Shown here in pieces: positions 50,121 to 60,078 of a DNA stretch of 64,000 nt. The stretch lies in NCBI RefSeq assembly GCF_044324785.1, contig NZ_CP172127.1; one strand, 5' to 3'. Position 1 is the first letter of the stretch, and the number at the start of each line of letters is the position of its first letter. Origin of the DNA: Escherichia coli. Its GTDB lineage: Bacteria; Pseudomonadota; Gammaproteobacteria; Enterobacterales; Enterobacteriaceae. The notes under the pieces were generated by a model. That model made no database searches. It was given only the letters and a program-made list of their open reading frames with translations, and was not told the origin of the DNA. Made by a program: the position numbers and the translations under genes.

Positions 50121-51788
50121 GTGGCTCAATTCGTTTATACCATGCATCGTGTCGGCAAAGTTGTTCCGCCGAAACGTCATATTTTGAAAAACATCTCTCT
50201 GAGTTTCTTCCCTGGGGCAAAAATTGGTGTCCTGGGTCTGAACGGCGCGGGTAAGTCCACCCTGCTGCGCATTATGGCGGGCATTGATAAAGACATCGAA
50301 GGCGAAGCGCGTCCGCAACCGGATATCAAGATTGGTTATCTGCCGCAGGAACCGCAGCTGAACCCGGAACACACCGTGCGTGAGTCCATTGAAGAAGCGG
50401 TTTCTGAAGTGGTTAACGCCCTGAAACGCCTGGATGAAGTGTATGCGCTGTACGCCGATCCGGATGCCGATTTTGACAAGCTGGCCGCTGAACAAGGCCG
50501 TCTGGAAGAGATCATTCAGGCTCACGACGGTCACAACCTGAACGTTCAGCTGGAGCGTGCGGCGGATGCGCTGCGTCTGCCGGACTGGGACGCGAAAATC
50601 GCTAACCTCTCCGGTGGTGAGCGTCGTCGCGTGGCGTTGTGCCGCCTGCTGCTGGAAAAACCAGACATGCTGCTGCTCGACGAACCGACCAACCACCTGG
50701 ATGCCGAATCCGTGGCCTGGTTGGAACGCTTCCTGCACGACTTCGAAGGCACCGTGGTGGCGATTACCCACGACCGTTACTTCCTTGATAACGTTGCAGG
50801 CTGGATCCTCGAACTGGACCGCGGTGAAGGTATTCCGTGGGAAGGCAACTACTCCTCCTGGCTGGAGCAGAAAGATCAACGTCTGGCGCAGGAAGCTTCA
50901 CAAGAAGCTGCGCGTCGTAAGTCGATTGAGAAAGAGCTGGAGTGGGTACGTCAGGGAACTAAAGGCCGTCAGTCGAAAGGTAAAGCACGTCTGGCGCGTT
51001 TTGAAGAGCTGAACAGCACCGAATATCAGAAACGTAACGAAACCAACGAACTGTTTATTCCACCAGGACCGCGTCTTGGCGATAAAGTGCTGGAAGTCAA
51101 CAACCTGCGTAAATCCTATGGCGATCGTCTGCTGATTGATGACCTGAGCTTCTCGATCCCGAAAGGAGCGATCGTCGGGATCATCGGTCCGAACGGTGCG
51201 GGTAAATCGACCCTGTTCCGTATGATCTCTGGTCAGGAACAGCCGGACAGCGGCACCATCACTTTGGGTGAAACGGTGAAACTGGCATCGGTTGATCAGT
51301 TCCGTGACTCAATGGATAACAGCAAAACCGTTTGGGAAGAAGTTTCCGGCGGGCTGGATATCATGAAGATCGGCAACACCGAGATGCCAAGCCGTGCCTA
51401 CGTTGGCCGCTTTAACTTTAAAGGGGTTGATCAGGGTAAACGCGTTGGCGAACTCTCCGGCGGTGAGCGCGGTCGTCTGCATCTGGCGAAGCTGCTGCAG
51501 GTTGGCGGCAACATGCTGCTGCTCGACGAACCAACCAACGACCTGGATATCGAAACCCTGCGCGCGCTGGAAAACGCCCTGCTGGAGTTCCCGGGCTGCG
51601 CGATGGTTATCTCGCACGACCGTTGGTTCCTCGACCGTATCGCCACGCACATTCTGGATTACCAGGATGAAGGTAAAGTTGAGTTCTTCGAAGGTAACTT
51701 TACCGAGTACGAAGAGTACAAGAAACGCACGCTGGGCGCAGACGCGCTGGAGCCGAAGCGTATCAAGTACAAGCGTATTGCGAAGTAA
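50121..51788 (+). CDS. ettA: Energy-dependent translational throttle protein EttA (ABC-F ATPase)
   Basis: 555-aa ORF MAQFVYTMHRVGKVVPPKRHILKNISLSFFPGAKIGVLGLNGAGKSTLLRIMAGIDKD; two ABC domains; intact. Confidence 0.97.
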   Translation: MAQFVYTMHRVGKVVPPKRHILKNISLSFFPGAKIGVLGLNGAGKSTLLRIMAGIDKDIEGEARPQPDIKIGYLPQEPQLNPEHTVRESIEEAVSEVVNALKRLDEVYALYADPDADFDKLAAEQGRLEEIIQAHDGHNLNVQLERAADALRLPDWDAKIANLSGGERRRVALCRLLLEKPDMLLLDEPTNHLDAESVAWLERFLHDFEGTVVAITHDRYFLDNVAGWILELDRGEGIPWEGNYSSWLEQKDQRLAQEASQEAARRKSIEKELEWVRQGTKGRQSKGKARLARFEELNSTEYQKRNETNELFIPPGPRLGDKVLEVNNLRKSYGDRLLIDDLSFSIPKGAIVGIIGPNGAGKSTLFRMISGQEQPDSGTITLGETVKLASVDQFRDSMDNSKTVWEEVSGGLDIMKIGNTEMPSRAYVGRFNFKGVDQGKRVGELSGGERGRLHLAKLLQVGGNMLLLDEPTNDLDIETLRALENALLEFPGCAMVISHDRWFLDRIATHILDYQDEGKVEFFEGNFTEYEEYKKRTLGADALEPKRIKYKRIAK

Positions 51789-51876
51789 TGCGTAAAATGC
51801 CGGATGCGGCGCGCCAGCATCGCATCCGGTATTAGTTAAATGATTAGTCCCCGGAAAAAGGCAGAATTTTCTTTAA
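51015..51876. repeat. Direct repeat copy A (ettA 3' end + REP + antitoxin-gene 3' remnant)
   Basis: About 860 bp that recur, with scattered substitutions and one 13-bp indel, at 55917..56776. Confidence 0.8.
51798..51830. repeat. REP element downstream of ettA
   Basis: GCCGGATGCGGCGCGCCAGCATCGCATCCGG palindrome; duplicated at about 56683..56715. Confidence 0.5.
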
Positions 51877-51943
51877 GCGTATTAGCTCAGATGCGGACTG
51901 ACACCTCAAATCAAGCGGGAACTCATGGTTCCCGCTTAACGTT

Positions 51944-52831
51944 TTATTCACCGCGCAGGATCTGGCGGAAATGGGAAACCAGCGGACGTTGGTTGGCTTT
52001 ATGCCAGGCTGCCCATAATTGCGTTGAATAATTCATCCACGGCAATTCACGTAATACCACCCCTTCCGGCGCATTATGACGCAGACTATGTTGAATTAAG
52101 GCCAGACCTAATCCCGCAGCGACCAGACCTAATGCCGTGAGGGGTTCACCCGCTTCCAGGCGAATATCAGGATTAAACCCGGCGTTAACACAGGCGGCGA
52201 CAAAATGATCGCGAGAATGCGCATCGTCGTTATGAATCACCGCAATCCACTGCTCATCGCCAAGTTGTGACGCGACAAGGTTTTCCTCCTGCGCCAGAGG
52301 ATGATTTTGCGGTAAGGCCAACAACATTCGATCATCCAGAACCTGAATATATTCCAGATCCTGCTCGCTGTCGGCGGGCGGCGTATCGACCAGAGAAAAA
52401 TCGAGACTGCGCTGGCGCAGGCCTTCAATCTGGGTAGCCGGTGGTTGGCTGTAAAGTGCGATATGCACATTCGGACGCGATACACGTAACGTACGTAGCG
52501 CCGTAGAAAGCACACCGGAATGCATGGCGTTTTCGATATAGCCAATACACAAGCCACCATCTTCCCCCCGTCCCAGGCGTTTGCCTAACGACTCCAGGCG
52601 GTTGGCGTGTGTCAGCAACGAACGTGTTTCGGCAAGGAATGTCTGTCCATCAGCGGTCAGGCGAATGCGCTGCTGATTACGCTCAAACAGCGTCAGCCCC
52701 AGCCGTTCTTCCAGTTGTGCAATCTGGCGGCTCAGCGGTGATTGCGAGATATGTAATCGCTCGGCTGCGCGTCCCACGTGCTCTTCTTCTGCGACCACCA
52801 CGAAGTACTTCAGTTGGCGTAAATCAATCAT
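51944..52831 (-). CDS. LysR-family transcriptional regulator
   Basis: ORF 51944..52924; canonical LysR N-terminus from internal Met MIDLRQLKYFVVVAEEEHVGRAAERLHISQSPLSRQIAQLEERLG (295 aa); divergent from the adjacent oxidoreductase genes. Confidence 0.85.
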   Translation of the reverse strand: MIDLRQLKYFVVVAEEEHVGRAAERLHISQSPLSRQIAQLEERLGLTLFERNQQRIRLTADGQTFLAETRSLLTHANRLESLGKRLGRGEDGGLCIGYIENAMHSGVLSTALRTLRVSRPNVHIALYSQPPATQIEGLRQRSLDFSLVDTPPADSEQDLEYIQVLDDRMLLALPQNHPLAQEENLVASQLGDEQWIAVIHNDDAHSRDHFVAACVNAGFNPDIRLEAGEPLTALGLVAAGLGLALIQHSLRHNAPEGVVLRELPWMNYSTQLWAAWHKANQRPLVSHFRQILRGE

Positions 52832-52896
52832 GTTAGACCTCAAAGGACTTAAGTCAGACGAATTATGTCCTATCAAGTCACAACCTCGCAAGGTAT

Positions 52897-52912
52897 TGTG
52901 ATCCACGTCACA
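52897..52912. promoter_or_regulatory. Perfect TGTGA-N6-TCACA palindrome in the LysR/AKR divergent promoter region
   Basis: TGTGATCCACGTCACA in the 133-bp intergenic region; fits the CRP half-site consensus and also a T-N11-A LysR-type box. Confidence 0.3.
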
Positions 52913-52964
52913 GGGCGATAGCAAAAAAACGCCCTAACCCAAACCGAATAATTGAGGACATCTT

Positions 52965-53975
52965 ATGAGCATCAAAAATTTACTTCCCGGCAAAATTGGC
53001 TTAGGTGGCGCACCACTCGGCAACATGTTCCGTGCCATTCCGGAAGACGAGGCCCACGCCACCGTGAGCGAAGCCTGGAACCTGGGCGTGCGTTACTTTG
53101 ATACCGCGCCGCTGTACGGCTCTGGCCTTTCTGAAATCCGCATGGGTGAAGCGCTGTCTCAGTATCCACGCGATGAATACGTTCTGAGCAGCAAAGTCGG
53201 TCGCATCATGCTGGACGAAATGGAAGATCCGGCAAAACGTGATTTCGGTGAAAAAGGTGGCCTGTTCGAACACGGCCTGAAAAACAAAATTCTGAATGAC
53301 TACTCTGCTGACGCCACGCTGCGCTCGATTGAAGACAGCCTGAAACGCCTGAAAACAGACCGTCTGGATATTGTCTGGATCCATGACCCGGCGCAGGACT
53401 TCTACGGTGACAGCTGGCTGGAACAGTTCAACATTGCCCGTACCGGTGCGTTTCGTGCGCTGACGCGTTTGCGTGACGAAGGTGTGATTAAAGCCTGGGG
53501 ACTGGGTGTGAATCGCGTCGAACCTTGCGAACTGACGCTGGCGCTGGACGAACCGAAGCCGGATGCGTTCCTGCTGGCGGGGCGTTATTCCCTGCTGGAT
53601 CACGAACGTGCGCTGCAACGCCTGATGCCAGAAGCACTGGAACAGAACGTGGATATTGTTGTGGGCGGTCCGTACAGCTCTGGCGTACTGGCAGGCGGCG
53701 AGCACTTTGAATATCAGAAAGCTTCTGCGGCCATCCAGCAGAAAGTGGCGCAAATTAACACCATTGCCACACGTTTCAATGTGAACGTTAAAGCAGCTGC
53801 GCTGCAGTTCGCACTGGCAAACCCGGCCGTTGCGGCGGTTATTCCTGGCTCCAGCCGTCCTGGCCGTATGGCAGAAGATCTGGCTGCACTGAATGCGCCT
53901 GTTCCGGCTGAATTCTGGGCAGAAATGCGCCGTCAAAATCTGGTTGCGGAAAACGCTCCGCTGCCGACCCGTTAA
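52965..53975 (+). CDS. Aldo/keto reductase family oxidoreductase
   Basis: 336 aa, MSIKNLLPGKIGLGGAPLGNMF...YFDTAPLYGSG; AKR fold motifs. Confidence 0.85.
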   Translation: MSIKNLLPGKIGLGGAPLGNMFRAIPEDEAHATVSEAWNLGVRYFDTAPLYGSGLSEIRMGEALSQYPRDEYVLSSKVGRIMLDEMEDPAKRDFGEKGGLFEHGLKNKILNDYSADATLRSIEDSLKRLKTDRLDIVWIHDPAQDFYGDSWLEQFNIARTGAFRALTRLRDEGVIKAWGLGVNRVEPCELTLALDEPKPDAFLLAGRYSLLDHERALQRLMPEALEQNVDIVVGGPYSSGVLAGGEHFEYQKASAAIQQKVAQINTIATRFNVNVKAAALQFALANPAVAAVIPGSSRPGRMAEDLAALNAPVPAEFWAEMRRQNLVAENAPLPTR

Positions 53976-53994
53976 TCAACCTGGTGAGAAAACG

Positions 53995-54792
53995 ATGAAA
54001 CTGGATCTGACAGGTAAAGTCGCGGTAGTCAGCGGCTCAACCTCCGGCATTGGGCAGGGTATCGCCGCCGGACTGGCAAAAGCAGGCGCAACGGTGGTTG
54101 TCGTCGGCCGTAAACAGCGCGGCGTTGATGACGCCATGGCTGCGATTGCGGCACAAACTCCCACGGCGTCACTGCGTGGCGTGGTGGCCGACCTCAGCAC
54201 CGAAGACGGCGTGGCTGCGCTGATCGCTGCAGTCCCAACGGCTGATGTGCTGGTCAATAATCTGGGCATTTTTAACGATAAAGATTTCTTTAGCGTTCCG
54301 GATGATGAGTGGATGCACTTCTATAACGTCAACGTCCTCTCCGGCGTTCGTCTGGCGCGTCACTATGCGCCAGGCATGACGGAACAGGGCTGGGGGCGGA
54401 TTATCTTTGTCTCGTCCGAATCCGGCGTGGCAATCCCTGGCGACATGATCAACTACGGCGTCACCAAAGCCGCGAATCTGGCGGTTTCTCATGGTCTGGC
54501 GAAACGACTGGCGGGGACCGGTGTGACCGTCAACGCCATTCTGCCAGGGCCAACCTTTACCGATGGCCTGAAAGAGATGCTGGCGGATGCCGCTGCACAA
54601 TCGGGACGCAGTGCGCGTGAACAGGCCGATGAGTTTGTTAAAACCTCGCGTCCGAGCTCCATCATCCAGCGTGCGGCGGATGTGGAAGAAGTGGCGAATC
54701 TGGCGGTTTATCTCGCGTCACCGCTTTCCTCGGCAACCACAGGGGCAGCCCTGCGCGTCGATGGTGGCGTCGTCGACACCCTGACTATGTAA
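53995..54792 (+). CDS. Short-chain dehydrogenase/reductase (SDR)
   Basis: ORF 53893..54792; start MKLDLTGKVAVVSGSTSGIGQGIA (TGxxxGxG Rossmann motif) preceded by GGTGAG; 265 aa. Confidence 0.85.
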   Translation: MKLDLTGKVAVVSGSTSGIGQGIAAGLAKAGATVVVVGRKQRGVDDAMAAIAAQTPTASLRGVVADLSTEDGVAALIAAVPTADVLVNNLGIFNDKDFFSVPDDEWMHFYNVNVLSGVRLARHYAPGMTEQGWGRIIFVSSESGVAIPGDMINYGVTKAANLAVSHGLAKRLAGTGVTVNAILPGPTFTDGLKEMLADAAAQSGRSAREQADEFVKTSRPSSIIQRAADVEEVANLAVYLASPLSSATTGAALRVDGGVVDTLTM

Positions 54793-54817
54793 CCCTATAA
54801 ATTAAGAGAAAATTATC

Positions 54818-55234
54818 ATGGCTAAAACAACTGTATCGATCGAAATTCCGGCTTCTGCCGACGCCGTATGGCAATTGATGGGCGGCTTTGATGCGCTGCC
54901 AGACTGGCTGCCGTTCATCCCGAAAAGCGTGGTGACAGAAGGCGGTCGCGTTCGTTCGCTGACAACCTCTGACGGCGGCACTGTGGTTGAACGTCTGGAA
55001 GCGTTTGATAACCGTCAACGCAGTTATACCTATTCCATTATTCAAGCACCGTTCCCAGTGGTGGATTACCTCTCCACCATTACCGTTCATGAAACCGCCG
55101 ACAGCCAGGTTTCCCGTGTGGAATGGTTCGGTGAATTCACCCCGGTGAATGTGACGAACGAAGAGGCCGAAGCGCTGTTTACCGGCATCTATCGGGATGG
55201 TCTCAAGGCGCTGAAGGACAACTTTGTTGCCTGA
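54818..55234 (+). CDS. SRPBCC-superfamily (polyketide cyclase / Bet v1-like) protein
   Basis: 138 aa; family assignment from overall sequence character, moderate certainty. Confidence 0.6.
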   Translation: MAKTTVSIEIPASADAVWQLMGGFDALPDWLPFIPKSVVTEGGRVRSLTTSDGGTVVERLEAFDNRQRSYTYSIIQAPFPVVDYLSTITVHETADSQVSRVEWFGEFTPVNVTNEEAEALFTGIYRDGLKALKDNFVA

Positions 55235-55391
55235 TGCAATCGACAGGCGTCGGAACGTCCGGCGTCTGATTATTAACAAAAGCAGAATAGTCTATTGTCA
55301 TTTGTATCATTTATGTTATCAGGCAGCAGGCGTATTCTCTTCCCATCGCGTTAATAAACGCCAAACAATTAAGACACTCTGGAATATAAAC

Positions 55392-55604
55392 ATGAAAACG
55401 ATCATCGCAATTTTTACGGCTTCTCTTTTCTCTGTCGCGGCGTTTAACGCATCGGCGCAAAGCGTGACAGCAACCGGTACAACACTGGATTCTGCGGAAG
55501 CAGTTATTGCGCAGAAAGCGAAAGAGATGAACGCCTCTGAATACAAAATCACCAGCGCTCGCATGGGCAATACCGTCACCATGAGTGCCGAACTGTACAA
55601 ATAA
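55392..55604 (+). CDS. DUF1471 (YdgH/BhsA/McbA-like) small secreted stress protein
   Basis: 70-aa frame MKTIIAIFTASLFSVAAFNASAQSV...ASEYKITSARMGNTVTMSAELYK; signal peptide and family-typical C-terminus. Confidence 0.7.
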   Translation: MKTIIAIFTASLFSVAAFNASAQSVTATGTTLDSAEAVIAQKAKEMNASEYKITSARMGNTVTMSAELYK

Positions 55605-55628
55605 CCGCGCAAGGGACCCATTACGTAA

Positions 55629-55838
55629 TTTGCTAAATATGCGCTGAATGCGTTGCCATTAAAAAACCGTATTGTAATGCCACCGATGACACGTTCCCGT
55701 GCGGGTGACGTTGCGACTGACATGATGGCGGACTATTACGCGCAGCGCGCTAGTGCAGGACTTATCATCAGCGAAGGTACGCAAATCAGCAGAAGCGCTG
55801 CGCATAATTTTCCACGGCCCGCTGATTTACTCCGGTAA
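55629..55838 (+). pseudogene. Remnant of an Old-Yellow-Enzyme (NemA-like) NADH:flavin oxidoreductase gene
   Basis: Frame encodes PLKNRIVMPPMTRSR...MMADYYAQRASAGLIISEGTQIS, resembling an OYE N-terminus, then loses similarity and stops; no in-frame ATG. Confidence 0.55.
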
Positions 55839-55916
55839 ATAGACCAAAGCGCGCGCAGAAGCGGACTGTCAGATTTGATTGCATTCTGGCTACGCAACTG
55901 GTCGGTTGGAGTATGA

Positions 55917-56677
55917 AGCACCGAATATCAGAAACGTAACGAAACCAACGAACTGTTTATTCCACCTGGACCGTGTCTGGGCGACAAAGTGCTGGAAGTC
56001 AGCAACCTGCGTAAATCCTATGGCGATCGTCTGCTGATTGACTCCCTGAGCTTCTCGATCCCGAAAGGAGCGATCGTCGGGATCATCGGTCCGAACGGTA
56101 CGGGCAAATCGACGTTGTTCCGTATGATCTCTGGTCAGGAACAGCCGGACAGCGGCACCATCACTCTGGGTGAAACGGTGAAACTGGCATCGGTTGATCA
56201 GTTCCGTGACTCAATGGATAACCGCAAAGCCGTTTGGGAAGAAGTTTCCGGCGGGCTGGATATCATGAAGATCGGCAACACCGAGATGCCAAGCCGCGCC
56301 TACGTTGGCCGCTTTAACTTTAAGGTAAACGCGTTGGTGAACTTTCCGGTGGTGAGCGCGGTCGTCTGCATCTGGCGAAGCTGCTGCAGGTTGGCGGCAA
56401 CATGCTGCTGCTCGACGAACCAACTAACGACCTGAATATCGAAACCCTGCGCGCGCTGGAAAACGCCCTACTGGAGTTCCCGGGCTGTGCGATGGTTATC
56501 TCGCACGACCGTTGGTTCCTCGACCGTATCGCCACGCACATCCTGGACTACCAGGATGAAGGTAAAGTTGAGTTCTTCGAAGGTAACTTTACCGAGTACG
56601 AAGAGTACAAAAAACGCACGCTGGGCGCAGACGCGCTGGAGCCGAAGCGTATCAAGTACAAGCGTATTGCGAAGTAA
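55917..56677 (+). pseudogene. Truncated, frameshifted second copy of the ettA 3' half
   Basis: Matches ettA from about 51015 onward with scattered substitutions and a 13-bp deletion near 56320 that breaks the frame; no 5' half. Confidence 0.85.
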
Positions 56678-56776
56678 TGCGTAAAATGCCGGGTGCGGCG
56701 CGCCAGCATCGCATCCGGTATTAGTTAAATGATTAATGGGAGGCAAGTTCCCGGAAAAAGGCAGGATTTTCTTTAA
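55917..56776. repeat. Direct repeat copy B (ettA' + REP + 3' end of intact antitoxin gene)
   Basis: Counterpart of 51015..51876. Confidence 0.8.
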
Positions 56777-57017
56777 TTGTGGCAAGTACTTTTGCAGCCA
56801 ATCCCGTAGGATTTCTTCGCTTCGATTCCCAGCTTTTAATGGTATCCACACTGGTTCCCAGAGCTTTTGCCATCTCACTTTGAGAAACGTTGAGTTGCTC
56901 ACGAATAGCTTTAACATCCGCAATTTCGTAGCGGGTCACCCGTGCAGGTTCTTTTAAACCTTGTTTAATCTCGACAGCCTCTTCCAGAGAGGTTTTCAAC
57001 TCATCAAAAAAACTCAT
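56733..57017 (-). CDS. HTH (XRE-like) antitoxin of a type II toxin-antitoxin pair
   Basis: 94 aa; C-terminal helix-turn-helix (LNVSQSEMAKALGTSVDTIKSWE); start 1 bp after the toxin stop. Confidence 0.7.
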   Translation of the reverse strand: MSFFDELKTSLEEAVEIKQGLKEPARVTRYEIADVKAIREQLNVSQSEMAKALGTSVDTIKSWESKRRNPTGLAAKVLATIKENPAFFRELASH

Positions 57018-57018
57018 T

Positions 57019-57351
57019 TTATACCTCGCCTTTGAGCAGTTTCGTCAACTTCTTTAGTTGAGCTTTTTCCGTATCTGTCAGACTATCTTTGGCATTTTTC
57101 GGATAGGCCATAATCAAATAAATAATCTCTTCCGTCGCCAGAAAGTAAATTATTCTGACACTGCCACTTTTTCCCTGTGAACCCGCAGCCATTCGGACTT
57201 TACGCAATCCACCAGTCTGCTGAATGAGATCACCTTTATCGGGAGTTCCGATGAGTTCTTTTTGTAATTCCTTTAATTCATCATCGGTTGCAATCTGCTT
57301 GATCTGACGCGTAAACATTGGCGTCTCTATAAATATTATCGCCTTGCCCAT
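57019..57351 (-). CDS. RelE/ParE-superfamily (HigB-like) toxin, putative
   Basis: ORF 57019..57429; likely start MGKAIIFIETPMF preceded by GGGAGG (about 110 aa); toxin-first gene order. Confidence 0.6.
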   Translation of the reverse strand: MGKAIIFIETPMFTRQIKQIATDDELKELQKELIGTPDKGDLIQQTGGLRKVRMAAGSQGKSGSVRIIYFLATEEIIYLIMAYPKNAKDSLTDTEKAQLKKLTKLLKGEV

Positions 57352-57366
57352 CCCCCCTCCCTGGCA

Positions 57367-57399
57367 GGTACATTGTACACCGAAATGGAGTACTAAGTA
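57367..57399. promoter_or_regulatory. Paired GTAC-containing palindromes upstream of the toxin gene (candidate operator)
   Basis: GTACATTGTAC and GTACTAAGTAC about 20 bp apart, 16-48 bp upstream of the proposed toxin start. Confidence 0.3.
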
Positions 57400-57442
57400 C
57401 ACTTTTGAATTAGTAATCCCACTCAACATCTTATAAAGATGA

Positions 57443-58675
57443 TTATCCCTGCTCCCCCATCATCTCCCGCACCAGCTCCACACAGCGCAGGAAACGGCTG
57501 TCGTAATCGTCCTCTTCAACCCGCACAAATTCGATATTGTTCTCTTCCAGCATCTCTACCAGCAAGTTCTGGAACTCTTTGCGATCCACCGAACTACCGA
57601 GGCTGCGTAAACCATCCGCCACCCACGGGGTGTTGTTCTCCAGCAAGATAACCAGATCAAAACGGTATTCATCGATCAGCGCCTGCACGAACGGATGCTC
57701 CCGCCCTTCGTACTTTTTGCAGAACGCCTGGGTAGTGACAAAATCAGTGTCGATAAACGCCACTTTATTGGCATATTTCACTGCAAAATCAATGTATTGA
57801 GCGTGTCCCAGCGCGATTTTATCGTAGTCGGAATACTGCAATGCGATCTCATCACCGCCAAGGTGTGAAAAGACATAATCGCGACCATATTCCCATGCAC
57901 TGGTAGTGTTGAAGATATTAGCAAGTTTGTTTACCAGGGTGGATTTACCGCTCGACTCGCCGCCAAGGATCGCCACGGTACGCACAAAGAACGGCTTCAC
58001 TTCGGTGGGAATATATTCCCAGTAGCGGAACGGGTTTTCGCGGATCTGCGCACCGCTGATACTCATAAAGGTACGCTTCGGATCGACCAGCACCGTCTCG
58101 ATCCCCAGATGTTCCATATACTGTGGCGCATCGGCTTCTTCCGAGGTGTAGATCAGGTCCGGCTGGATCCCCTTTTCAGCCATAAACTTTTTGATGCCGT
58201 TGCTCCACACATCCCAGCCGTGCGGATATGGCTCCATGCCCTCTTCGTTGAAAGCATGAATACGGATATTTTTCTGATATTTAAAGGTTTGCAATAACCA
58301 GCGCAGACGATCCGGCACGGTGGGCTGCTGCGACATGGCGCTGTCTTCAAACAACGCGCGGTCGCGGGTATCGTCAAAACCCATAATGATATGCAGCTCG
58401 TCAACCTGGCTACAGGCGCGCTGGATAAGGTAGATATGTCCGGTATGTAGCGGGTAGAACTTACCGAATACGACACCAATGGTTTTCTTCTGTCGGGGAA
58501 ATTCAAGCCCCAAAAAACGGTGCAACGCCTCCAGTTTTTGCGCGCTGGGGCTTTTAATTTTGGCATTCAGTAACTGGCTTAAATACCCTTTGGTCATACC
58601 GCTGGCATCAGCTACCTGCTGTAGCGTGCAGCCCTGTTGCTTGATGGCAGTTTTCAGGTAATCAAATGACGACAT
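57443..58675 (-). CDS. nadR: Trifunctional NAD biosynthesis/regulator protein NadR
   Basis: ORF 57443..58696; NadR from MSSFDYLKTAIKQQGCTLQQVADASGMTKGYLSQLL (410 aa). Confidence 0.95.
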   Translation of the reverse strand: MSSFDYLKTAIKQQGCTLQQVADASGMTKGYLSQLLNAKIKSPSAQKLEALHRFLGLEFPRQKKTIGVVFGKFYPLHTGHIYLIQRACSQVDELHIIMGFDDTRDRALFEDSAMSQQPTVPDRLRWLLQTFKYQKNIRIHAFNEEGMEPYPHGWDVWSNGIKKFMAEKGIQPDLIYTSEEADAPQYMEHLGIETVLVDPKRTFMSISGAQIRENPFRYWEYIPTEVKPFFVRTVAILGGESSGKSTLVNKLANIFNTTSAWEYGRDYVFSHLGGDEIALQYSDYDKIALGHAQYIDFAVKYANKVAFIDTDFVTTQAFCKKYEGREHPFVQALIDEYRFDLVILLENNTPWVADGLRSLGSSVDRKEFQNLLVEMLEENNIEFVRVEEDDYDSRFLRCVELVREMMGEQG

Positions 58676-58695
58676 ATCTCCCTCCGTATCTCTCA

Positions 58696-60078
58696 TTATA
58701 AGTCGTCGAACACGCTAAGCGCGTCGGAGAGTTTTTTAACGCCAAAAATCTGCATCCCTTCCGGCGCTTTTTTCGGCACGTTAGCCGCCGGAACAATCGC
58801 CCGGCGAAAACCGTGTTTCGCCGCTTCAGAGATTCGTTCCTGACCGCTGGGCACCGGGCGGATCTCCCCTGCCAGCCCGACTTCACCAAACACCACCAGA
58901 TCCTGTGGCAGCGGTCTGTCGCGCAGGCTGGAAACCATCGCCAGCAGTAACGCTAAGTCGGCGCTGGTTTCGGTTACCTTCACGCCGCCGACCACGTTCA
59001 CAAACACATCCTGATCGGCCATTTGCAGACCACCGTGACGGTGCAAGACAGCCAGCAGGATTGCCAGACGGTTTTGTTCCAGCCCCACTGCCACGCGGCG
59101 CGGATTCGCCATCATCGAGTGATCGACCAGCGCCTGAATCTCCACCAGCAACGGACGCGTTCCTTCCCACACCACCATCACTGAGCTACCGGAGGTCACT
59201 TCATCACCGCGGCTTAAAAAGATGGCGGAAGGGTTGCTGACTTCACGCAGCCCCTGTTCGGTCATCGCGAAGACGCCCAGCTCATTCACCGCGCCGAAGC
59301 GGTTTTTATGGCTGCGTAAGGTGCGAAAACGGGAGTCGGCATCGCCATCCAGAAGCACCGAACAGTCAATACAGTGTTCCAGCACTTTAGGGCCAGCCAG
59401 CGAACCATCTTTGGTTACGTGCCCAACCATGACAATCGCCACGCCGCGCGTTTTGGCGAAGCGCGTCAGATAAGCCGCCGTTTCACGCACCTGCGCCACG
59501 CTGCCAGGCGATGATTGTACATCCGCCATATGCATCACCTGAATGGAGTCAATTACCATCAGCTTCGGTTGCTCTTCTTCGGCAATCAGGCAGATTTGCT
59601 CGATGCTGGTTTCCGACAACATATTGAGATTGTCAGTCGGCAGGCCAAGGCGATGAGCGCGCATTGCCACCTGTTGCAGCGACTCTTCGCCGGTGACATA
59701 CAGCGTTTTCATCTGCTGCGCCAGTTTGCACAGCGTTTGCAGCAACAGCGTGGATTTCCCCGCACCTGGGTTACCGCCAATCAGAATGGCGCTTCCCGGC
59801 ACCACCCCGCCGCCTAATACGCGGTCGAACTCTTTAAATCCGGTGGAAAAACGCGGCAGCTCTTCAAGGCTGATGTCGGAAAGTTTCTGGACTTTTGCCA
59901 CCCCGGCGCTACCGGCATAGCCACTGAGACGCTCGTTACGCGCCACCGTTGGTGACGCGGCAAGACGCACCTCGGTGATGGTGTTCCAGGCATGACAGGC
60001 ACTGCACTGTCCCTGCCAGCGCGGATAATCGGCCCCGCATTCATTACAAACAAAGGCGCGTTTTGGAGCTTTTGCCAC
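58696..60078 (-). CDS. radA: DNA repair protein RadA (Sms)
   Basis: ORF 58696..60126; probable GTG start giving (M)AKAPKRAFVCNECGADYPRWQGQCSAC; Walker A GNPGAGKST. Confidence 0.95.
   Translation of the reverse strand: MAKAPKRAFVCNECGADYPRWQGQCSACHAWNTITEVRLAASPTVARNERLSGYAGSAGVAKVQKLSDISLEELPRFSTGFKEFDRVLGGGVVPGSAILIGGNPGAGKSTLLLQTLCKLAQQMKTLYVTGEESLQQVAMRAHRLGLPTDNLNMLSETSIEQICLIAEEEQPKLMVIDSIQVMHMADVQSSPGSVAQVRETAAYLTRFAKTRGVAIVMVGHVTKDGSLAGPKVLEHCIDCSVLLDGDADSRFRTLRSHKNRFGAVNELGVFAMTEQGLREVSNPSAIFLSRGDEVTSGSSVMVVWEGTRPLLVEIQALVDHSMMANPRRVAVGLEQNRLAILLAVLHRHGGLQMADQDVFVNVVGGVKVTETSADLALLLAMVSSLRDRPLPQDLVVFGEVGLAGEIRPVPSGQERISEAAKHGFRRAIVPAANVPKKAPEGMQIFGVKKLSDALSVFDDL

What the first reader, a model, noticed from the sequence alone, without database searches (positions are those of the whole stretch)
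55629..55838. Decayed Old-Yellow-Enzyme gene marks the right edge of the cargo
Only about 50 codons resembling the N-terminus of a NemA-like flavin oxidoreductase remain, with no in-frame ATG and loss of similarity after ...GLIISEGTQIS, about 80 bp before the ettA' homology begins. This implies the cargo was once longer and was truncated at or after the recombination that produced the repeat junction.
Basis: partly seen in the sequence, partly recalled or inferred. Interest (0 to 1): 0.3.

Follow-up and report, generated by a model that had tools for sequence, protein, structure and literature searches.

The report
Dead Old-Yellow-Enzyme gene in island
This is the wreck of a flavin-dependent ene-reductase gene at the end of a small accessory gene block between ettA and nadR in E. 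coli; it is an ordinary pseudogene, and it was broken before the neighbouring ettA duplication formed, not by it.

Summary
Window 55623-55790 is the 5' end of an Old Yellow Enzyme (OYE) gene: Pfam Oxidored_FMN E 1.2e-9, and 162/168 nt identical to an intact 365-codon homologue in strain E69.

- The start is destroyed (ATG TTA to ACG TAA).
- There is a 6-bp deletion.
- Similarity is lost after GTQIS because of a 686-bp internal deletion (gene nt 175-860, the catalytic core).
- Another 71 nt of OYE follow in a shifted frame (55791-55861, gene nt 861-931), carrying a TAC-to-TAG stop.
- A 1585-bp microhomology deletion then removed the rest of the remnant and an adjacent gene cassette.
- The last 57 bp before ettA' (55862-55918) are the island's conserved right-end sequence.

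The cargo was indeed once longer. However, the start loss and the 686-bp deletion are in all seven E. coli carriers I read base by base, and blastn shows the same two-piece match in all 482 carriers. The 1585-bp deletion occurs in genomes that lack the ettA' repeat, such as N3. By parsimony the ettA' junction is younger than these lesions. That junction is found in the window and one other genome. It is probably a scar of single-crossover or one-ended recombination between E. coli lineages.

RefSeq already annotates the fragment as a partial alkene reductase. Low interest.

The parts
51847..55918 (.). Accessory island between ettA and nadR: LysR regulator (51944-52831, -), aldo/keto reductase (52965-53975), SDR (53995-54792), SRPBCC (54818-55234), DUF1471/YdgH-BhsA (55393-55604), the OYE pseudogene and the right-end motif.
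   Evidence: The left junction AATGATTA|GTCCCCGG is identical in all carriers examined, and its TTA is the nadS stop codon in LF82. RefSeq annotation of syntenic loci. 491 of 5,426 complete E. coli genomes match the OYE' region.
55623..55790 (+). OYE pseudogene, 5' piece (gene nt 1-174 less 6 bp; codons 1-58).
   Evidence: Pfam Oxidored_FMN E 1.2e-9. 162/168 nt identical to the intact E69 gene. 97.8% identity over window 51913-55790 vs L018 7096-10979.
55623..55628 (+). Destroyed start: ACG TAA where intact homologues have ATG TTA (Met-Leu).
   Evidence: Shared by all 7 E. coli carriers examined; intact in E69 and E. whittamii.
55698..55699 (+). Site of an in-frame 6-bp deletion (SRAGAGD to SRAGD).
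   Evidence: Present in the window, 06-00048, N3, ST2747 and VCSW7; absent from the GNAT- and DUF2846-type islands (L105, L106).
55790..55791 (+). Junction of the 686-bp internal deletion (gene nt 175-860, codons 59-287). It removes the catalytic core, including the HGANGYLINQF motif, and shifts the frame.
   Evidence: Split blastn matches to E69 (10979 then 11666), to L005 and, with a gap of 685 nt because its gene carries a frameshift, to L016. L021 (Yokenella) gives an equivalent gap. Deleted residues listed.
55791..55861 (+). OYE pseudogene, 3' piece (gene nt 861-931, codons 288-310) in a shifted frame, with an in-frame TAG at 55840-55842 (TAC in E69 and ST2747).
   Evidence: 67/71 nt identical to E69 11666-11736; translation EALRIIFHGPLIYSGK*TKARAE.
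55857..55861 (.). Junction of a 1585-bp deletion (microhomology CGAAG). It removed OYE nt 932 to about 1000, a gene cassette, and the first ~18 nt of the right-end motif.
   Evidence: ST2747 (L004) carries CGAA at 6298 and again at 7883; the window, N3 and 06-00048 have one copy.
55862..55918 (.). Conserved right-end sequence of the island (...CGGACTGTCAGATTTGATTGCATTCTGGCTACGCAACTGGTCGGTTGGAGTATGAAG).
   Evidence: Present next to nadS' in ST2747, VCSW7, N3, L105 and L106. A 54-nt relative (91%) lies in an unrelated integrase island, L104. No Rfam family matches.
55917..56735 (+). ettA' (codons 299-555 of ettA, frameshifted by a 13-bp deletion near 56324) plus the 58-bp region downstream of ettA. 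This is the right copy of the direct repeat; the AG at 55917-55918 is shared with the island end.
   Evidence: Direct repeats 51015-51314 / 55917-56216 and 51435-51734 / 56324-56623; alignment. The junction is shared only with strain 06-00048.
50121..51846 (+). Intact ettA (555 codons, to 51788) plus its downstream region. Positions 51015-51846 form the left copy of the repeat.
56733..57351 (-). Complete nadS antitoxin (56733-57017) and RelE/ParE-family toxin (57019-57351). These are deleted or truncated in the other island carriers examined.

Best explanation
Window 55623-55861 is a non-functional remnant of a class-I Old Yellow Enzyme (an FMN-dependent ene-reductase, closest to Shewanella SYE1). 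It was originally the last gene of a six-gene block (LysR, AKR, SDR, SRPBCC, DUF1471, OYE) that occurs as a unit in several Enterobacterales.

In the E. coli lineage that carries the block between ettA and nadR, the gene decayed stepwise:
1. Loss of the start (ATG TTA to ACG TAA) and a 686-bp internal deletion that removed codons 59-287. Both are in all seven carriers read directly, and the two-piece blastn match holds for all 482.
2. A 6-bp slip deletion, present in most carriers.
3. A TAC-to-TAG change and a 1585-bp CGAAG-microhomology deletion. This deletion removed the rest of the 3' remnant and an adjacent gene cassette, and left 57 bp of island-end sequence.

Only afterwards (inferred by parsimony) was the island end joined to ettA nt 895. 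The most likely route is that a re-circularised [ettA 3' half, downstream region, island] fragment integrated by a single crossover into a strain with the ettA-nadS-relE-nadR arrangement. A one-ended homologous plus illegitimate event is the alternative. Either route leaves the ettA' direct repeat. The window's own lineage then acquired this allele by ordinary homologous recombination.

Shown: the identity of the gene and all breakpoints. Inferred: the order of events and the recombination mechanism.
For: Family and homology: Pfam; 97.8% over 3.9 kb to E69, whose OYE is intact: Pfam 2-342/342, E 2.5e-85; SYE1 464 bits vs NemA 344.

Breakpoints.

Lesions are older than, or independent of, ettA': all 482 carriers give the same two-piece match to the E69 gene and none covers it fully. 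The seven carriers read directly all have ACG TAA and the deletion junction. The ettA' junction is in 1 of 5,426 genomes plus the window.

Less-deleted forms: ST2747-type in 21 genomes, GNAT-type and DUF2846-type. All three have the island end joined to nadS codon 41 and relE deleted.

Repeat anatomy.

ettA' is old: a 13-bp deletion and about 9 derived substitutions (6 at first codon positions) are shared with 06-00048, followed by 9 differences between the two copies.

Mosaic import.

Mechanistic precedent: in E. coli conjugation, 56 of 60 aberrant recombinants were 109-950 bp duplications of the homologous anchor, produced by single crossover of a degraded, re-closed molecule; 4 of 60 were homology-facilitated illegitimate recombination (PMC3240628).
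Against: - The order of events rests on parsimony. No genome was seen that combines an ettA' junction with a cassette, but only 2 ettA' carriers exist to look at.
- Neither recombination route explains why the ettA' junction and the nadS' junction use exactly the same last base of the island (55918).
- The prevalence of the 1585-bp deletion beyond N3, 06-00048 and the window is inferred from blastn coverage, not from reading each genome.
- E69 carries the block at a different locus (next to yhiN/pitA), so it is a close homologue (97.8%) rather than a positional ortholog.
- Recombination has shuffled alleles, so donor and recipient can no longer be identified.
Confidence: 0.8

Rival explanations
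1. One reading: the OYE gene was cut short by, or after, the recombination that created the ettA' repeat junction, so the fragment is the broken end of the cargo.
For: The OYE remnant is the last recognisable gene before ettA'. The gene is truncated at its 3' end as well as internally.
Against: - 57 bp of island-end sequence, conserved in all carriers examined, separate the remnant from ettA'.
- The same OYE 3' breakpoint (CGAAG, 55857-61) is in N3, which has no ettA'. Full-length coverage across it in 482 genomes suggests it is common.
- The start loss and the 686-bp deletion are shared by every carrier type read.
Confidence: 0.05
2. Reverse polarity: the ettA'-flanked arrangement is the original insertion product. 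The common arrangement (island end joined to nadS codon 41, relE lost) would then derive from it by a deletion from the start of ettA' to nadS codon 42.
For: - ettA' is an old pseudogene, with about 1.2% derived changes shared by two carriers that differ by 1.1-1.4%.
- Complete nadS-relE is the ancestral state of the locus (673 genomes).
- An AG microhomology exists at both candidate endpoints.
Against: - The 1585-bp deletion would have to arise twice, or cross between alleles through a crossover inside 57 bp, because all three cassette-bearing forms have the nadS' junction.
- The deletion's left end would have to fall exactly on the island/ettA' boundary.
- The left junction (ettA downstream region | island) must already exist for an ettA'-flanked product to form.
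Confidence: 0.12
3. The island's right end is a site-specific recombination site left by a lost integrase. It has been joined independently to two targets (nadS codon 41 and ettA nt 895), and different gene cassettes are exchanged next to it.
For: - The same terminal base is used in both junction types.
- Three alternative cassettes lie between constant flanks.
- The TauE cassette is 93% identical to part of a Salmonella island where an integrase fragment sits at the corresponding position.
- A relative of the end motif lies in another integrase island.
Against: - No integrase or recombinase ORF lies between ettA and nadR in the window.
- The hairpin in the motif is not conserved: z -2.6 in ST2747 but -0.4, +0.4 and -1.4 elsewhere.
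- No integron-type core sites are evident by eye.
- There is no Rfam hit.
- The left junction is identical in both junction types, which independent insertions would not give.
Confidence: 0.08

Closest known systems
SYE1 of Shewanella oneidensis (PDB 2GOU/4AWS), a class-I bacterial Old Yellow Enzyme
   Same: The intact homologue in strain E69 aligns end to end with SYE1 (residues 2-364, 464 bits, E 2.8e-138). The window's surviving codons match the same N-terminal strand/helix region (MPPMTRSRA...AGLIISEGTQIS).
   Different: The window copy lacks a start codon, codons 59-287 (FMN and substrate-binding core) and everything after codon 310. It cannot fold as a TIM barrel.
NemA (N-ethylmaleimide reductase, NCBIfam NF007899) and PETN reductase
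   Same: Same Pfam family. The E69 homologue matches the NemA model over its whole length (396.4 bits).
   Different: The score is below the curated cut-off (403). Solved NemA and PETN reductase score about 120 bits lower than SYE1.
Partial duplications from single-crossover integration of re-circularised DNA, and homology-facilitated illegitimate recombination, in E. coli (PMC3240628)
   Same: An insert flanked by a direct repeat of part of the homologous anchor (832 and 819 bp here; 109-950 bp in the experiments), an illegitimate joint with 0-2 nt of homology, and no loss of recipient sequence.
   Different: This is a natural, ancient event inferred from sequence only. The joint coincides with a pre-existing island boundary, which the experimental system does not predict.
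PGAP/RefSeq annotation of the same fragment
   Same: Syntenic loci are already annotated 'alkene reductase' or 'hypothetical protein', 'incomplete; partial in the middle of a contig; missing C-terminus'. In ST2747 a 42-aa 'oxidoreductase' is annotated for the 3' piece.
   Different: The annotation does not record the internal 686-bp deletion, the lost start, or the link between the two pieces.

Membership tests
Old Yellow Enzyme family (Pfam PF00724 Oxidored_FMN) | Significant match to the family profile | tested here: met
   E 1.2e-9, 38.3 bits against a cut-off of 27, profile positions 10-60/342. 96% nt identity to an intact family member.
Old Yellow Enzyme family (Pfam PF00724 Oxidored_FMN) | Complete (beta/alpha)8 barrel domain of about 340 residues | tested here: not met
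   Only codons 1-58 and 288-310 of 365 survive. The 3' piece alone gives no Pfam hit.
Old Yellow Enzyme family (Pfam PF00724 Oxidored_FMN) | Active-site His/Asn pair and Tyr proton donor (HGANGYL motif in the E69 homologue; role of the residues from general knowledge of the family) | tested here: not met
   The motif lies in deleted codons 59-287.
Old Yellow Enzyme family (Pfam PF00724 Oxidored_FMN) | Translatable gene (start codon, open frame) | tested here: not met
   ATG TTA changed to ACG TAA, a frameshift at 55790|55791, and a TAG at 55840.
NemA subfamily (NCBIfam NF007899) | Score at or above the curated cut-off (403 bits) for the intact homologue | tested here: not met
   396.4 bits. 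SYE1 is the closer solved relative.
Scar of single-crossover integration of a circularised fragment | Insert flanked by a direct repeat of part of the homologous anchor, with one copy truncated at an illegitimate joint | tested here: met
   Repeats 51015-51846 and 55917-56735. The right copy starts at ettA nt 895, directly after the island end, with AG overlap.
Scar of single-crossover integration of a circularised fragment | Direct observation of the circular intermediate, or of donor and recipient alleles | not testable with these tools
   Later recombination has made the region mosaic.
Integron-like or site-specific cassette platform | Adjacent integrase/recombinase gene | tested here: not met
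   There is no such ORF between ettA and nadR in the window or in the annotated syntenic loci.
Integron-like or site-specific cassette platform | Conserved structured recombination site at cassette borders | tested here: inconclusive
   An 8-bp hairpin is strong only in ST2747 (z -2.6) and is not conserved in L105 or L106. The constant flanks are real.

The most novel reading that the evidence does not exclude
The ~75-nt conserved end motif of the island is a relic recombination site next to which single-gene cassettes (wHTH+TauE, GNAT, DUF2846) are exchanged. Its terminal base has been joined to two different chromosomal targets. That would make it an integrase-less remnant of an undescribed small cassette-capturing element in Enterobacteriaceae.
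Probability: 0.07. Interest if true: 0.5.

Novelty: already known. Interest (0 to 1): 0.12.

Why it matters
It matters little beyond correct annotation.

- The two OYE pieces belong to one gene with an internal deletion. RefSeq files them as unrelated partial ORFs.
- The OYE lesions cannot be used to date or explain the ettA duplication.
- The locus is a tidy natural example of three things: stepwise pseudogene decay, with independent deletions in E. coli and E. whittamii; microhomology deletions; and a partial duplication of the kind seen experimentally when degraded, re-circularised DNA integrates by a single crossover in E. coli.
- The ettA-nadR intergenic region has at least seven structural alleles. 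That could make it useful as a typing or recombination marker.

Tried and rejected
1. I first read the 57-bp stretch (frame: SGLSDLIAFWLRNWSVGV) as the OYE 'ADLIGFGRP' motif. Rejected: ST2747 has the true motif further left (…SDLIGFGRPY), the stretch lies beyond a 1.5-kb cassette there, and Pfam gives no hit.

2. I asked whether the 57 bp is a diverged piece of nadS or of ettA upstream sequence. No similarity (and by eye).

3. Hairpin or attC-like structure in the end motif: not conserved. Rfam: nothing.

4. Promoter and terminator scans of 55200-56200: nothing above shuffles.

5. The search for homologous proteins with the short chimeric query returned only short, broken proteins. These led by chance to frameshifted or deleted copies (L005-L007, L011-L016), so they cannot be used to estimate how often this OYE is inactivated.

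6. Attempts to assign ettA' to a donor lineage from diagnostic sites were uninformative.

7. Microhomology 'CAC(C)GAATA' as the ettA'/nadS' deletion guide: rejected because the product would lack or retain TTGCT incorrectly.

Full report
**Setting**

The window is an E. coli chromosome segment running carB ... dnaK ... thrCBA ... arcA ... slt, ettA, nadR, radA. Between an intact ettA (50121-51788) and nadR (57443-58696, minus strand) lies a 4.07-kb accessory island (51847-55918). It encodes a LysR regulator, an aldo/keto reductase, an SDR, an SRPBCC protein and a DUF1471 protein. The sequence in question follows. After it come a 5'-truncated, frameshifted second copy of ettA (ettA'), and then a complete nadS / RelE-family toxin-antitoxin pair. 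The OYE' region is found in 491 of 5,426 complete E. coli genomes.

Yes.
- The 54-residue translation hits Pfam Oxidored_FMN (PF00724) at E 1.2e-9 and 38.3 bits against a curated cut-off of 27, matching profile positions 10-60 of 342.
- RefSeq annotates the same stretch in syntenic genomes as a partial 'alkene reductase' or 'hypothetical protein, missing C-terminus'.

**The intact relative**

A scan of one genome per species with the neighbouring SRPBCC protein found the same six-gene block elsewhere.
- In strain E69 (CP089930.1, deposited as E. coli), the OYE is uninterrupted at 365 codons (L018:10806-11903). It matches Pfam over 2-342/342 at E 2.5e-85.
- The window matches E69 at 97.8% from 51913 to 55790. 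It then jumps 686 bp and matches again at 55791-55864.
- Yokenella regensburgei also has an intact copy.
- E. whittamii has the block with a different, independent 638-bp OYE deletion.
- E69 and E. whittamii share only the block, not its flanks. In E69 it sits next to dtpB-uspA-uspB-pitA-yhiN. The block therefore moves as a unit, with OYE as its terminal gene.
- The E69 protein is closest to Shewanella SYE1 (464 bits), ahead of solved NemA (344) and PETN reductase (337). It falls just under NCBIfam's NemA cut-off (396.4 vs 403).

**Anatomy of the pseudogene**

1. 55623-55628 reads ACG TAA where E69 and E. whittamii read ATG TTA. Two point changes destroyed the start and created a stop at codon 2.
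2. A 6-bp deletion lies at about 55698/55699 (SRAGAGD to SRAGD).
3. At 55790|55791 a 686-bp deletion removes gene nt 175-860 (codons 59-287). This includes the HGANGYLINQF active-site segment, and it shifts the reading frame.
4. 55791-55861 is gene nt 861-931 (67/71 identical to E69). It reads EALRIIFHGPLIYSGK*TKARAE, with TAC changed to TAG at 55840-55842.
5. At 55857-55861 (CGAAG) the OYE sequence stops.

**What lies between the remnant and ettA'**

Other island carriers show what is missing.
- In ST2747-type genomes (21 genomes), the OYE 3' piece continues to about gene nt 989-1000 (…YTKARAEQALANG*SDLIGFGRPY). It is followed by a 1.5-kb wHTH + TauE cassette that is 93% identical to part of a Salmonella integrase island. 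A conserved ~75-nt end motif comes next.
- Two further variants carry a GNAT gene or a DUF2846 gene in the same slot, between the same flanks.
- The window, 06-00048 and N3 lack the slot contents because of a 1585-bp deletion between two CGAA(G) copies (L004 6298 and 7883). The 482 genomes that give full-length coverage across this junction suggest this form is the common one.
- Because the longer forms retain extra sequence homologous to OYE, the short form is the derived one.
- Window 55862-55918 is the surviving 57 bp of the end motif. The true right edge of the island is base 55918.

**Order of events**

- The start loss and the 686-bp deletion are in all seven carriers I read directly, covering every structural type.
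- All 482 carriers give the same two-piece match to the E69 gene, and none covers it fully.
- The 6-bp deletion is absent from the GNAT and DUF2846 types.
- TAG and the 1585-bp deletion are shared by N3, 06-00048 and the window.
- The junction 'island end | ettA nt 895' occurs only in the window and in 06-00048.
- All three cassette-bearing types, and N3, instead have 'island end | nadS codon 41' with relE deleted.
- The shortest history is: cassette types, then the 1585-bp deletion (N3-type), then the ettA' junction. The opposite order needs the 1585-bp deletion twice, or a crossover inside 57 bp.
- The OYE lesions therefore predate the repeat junction. This is an inference from parsimony.

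**The ettA' repeat**

- The left copy is 51015-51846 and the right copy is 55917-56735.
- Each copy ends at AATGATTA, whose TTA is the nadS stop codon in strains such as LF82. LF82 has the uninterrupted arrangement ettA-nadS-relE-nadR, as do 673 genomes.
- ettA' starts at ettA nt 895 (codon 299), overlapping the island end by AG.
- It carries a 13-bp deletion (ettA nt 1302-1314, window ~56324) and about nine derived substitutions, six at first codon positions. These are shared with 06-00048. The two ettA' copies differ at 9 of ~830 sites. The pseudogene is old.
- The window is N3-like left of about 53,850 and right of 57,443 (0-1 mismatch per 400 nt). It is 06-00048-like across nadS-relE. Its lineage therefore probably received the ettA' allele by ordinary homologous recombination.

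**Mechanism for the junction (inferred)**

The structure is the one reported for E. coli conjugation. There, 56 of 60 aberrant recombinants were 109-950-bp duplications of the homologous anchor. They were produced when a degraded linear molecule re-closed and integrated by a single crossover. Four of 60 were homology-facilitated illegitimate recombination, with 0-1 nt of homology at the joint (PMC3240628).

Applied here, a circle [ettA nt 895 to stop, downstream region, island] from an N3-type strain would integrate into ettA of an LF82-type strain. That gives exactly the window's arrangement.

One thing remains unexplained: the new joint uses the same terminal base of the island as the older nadS' joint. 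A heteroduplex-boundary effect, a relic recombination site, or chance are all possible. A hairpin in the motif is not conserved, and no recombinase gene is present.

**Function**

None for the remnant. The 61-codon TTG ORF (55653-55838) is the out-of-context N-terminus plus frameshifted tail, and no promoter- or terminator-like signals stand out. The block as a whole looks like a LysR-controlled set of carbonyl/ene reductases; this is inferred from the family names only.

**Verdict**

It is wrong on timing and on the physical edge. This is an ordinary, already-annotated pseudogene, and interest is low.

Noticed in passing
L004:6354-7947; L105:3215-3941; L106:3215-4222 (slot deleted at window 55857-55861): There is a variable slot between the OYE 3' remnant and a conserved ~75-nt end motif. 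It holds wHTH+TauE (21 genomes), a GNAT gene, a DUF2846 gene, or nothing. The flanks are constant. The TauE cassette is 93% identical to part of a Salmonella integrase island and 82% identical to IncFII-plasmid-borne copies.
   Followed up: partly
L019:10797-11263 (E. whittamii); L006:8001-8934; L005, L007, L016: The same OYE gene is independently broken elsewhere: a 638-bp deletion in E. whittamii, a ~167-nt deletion in L006, and frameshifts in L005, L007 and L016. Except for E. whittamii, these were found through a search biased towards short ORFs, so the frequency of loss is unknown.
   Followed up: partly
L018:7096-11908 vs L019, L021, L016: The LysR-AKR-SDR-SRPBCC-DUF1471-OYE block has sharp borders and sits at different loci in different genomes (next to yhiN/pitA in E69). 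The four-gene core without DUF1471-OYE is widespread (Trabulsiella, Yersinia, Serratia, Raoultella, Providencia).
   Followed up: partly
window 53850-57443: The window is a recombination mosaic. It is near-identical to strain N3 on both sides, but across the right part of the island, ettA' and nadS-relE it is closer to the lineage of 06-00048.
   Followed up: partly
window 56733-57351 (minus strand); L009:3275-3581: The nadS / RelE-family toxin-antitoxin pair is polymorphic. It is complete in 673 of 5,426 genomes and in the window. In K-12, where REP elements fill the gap, and in the other island carriers examined, it is reduced to about 40 nadS codons plus the last ~9 relE codons.
   Followed up: partly
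L104:2986-3039 (E. coli TUM10008): A 54-nt relative (91%) of the island's end motif lies inside an unrelated island that carries pPIWI-associated nuclease, DUF4365, VbhA antitoxin and integrase genes.
   Followed up: no
L104:5293-5404: RefSeq annotates a 112-nt 'tRNA-Ser' here. Neither ARAGORN nor Rfam at E<=1 detects any tRNA in the locus.
   Followed up: no
window 50665-50788, 51511-51634, 56400-56523: A 124-nt repeat at 70-73% identity reflects the two ABC cassettes inside ettA (and again in ettA'). It is an expected internal duplication, not a separate feature.
   Followed up: yes
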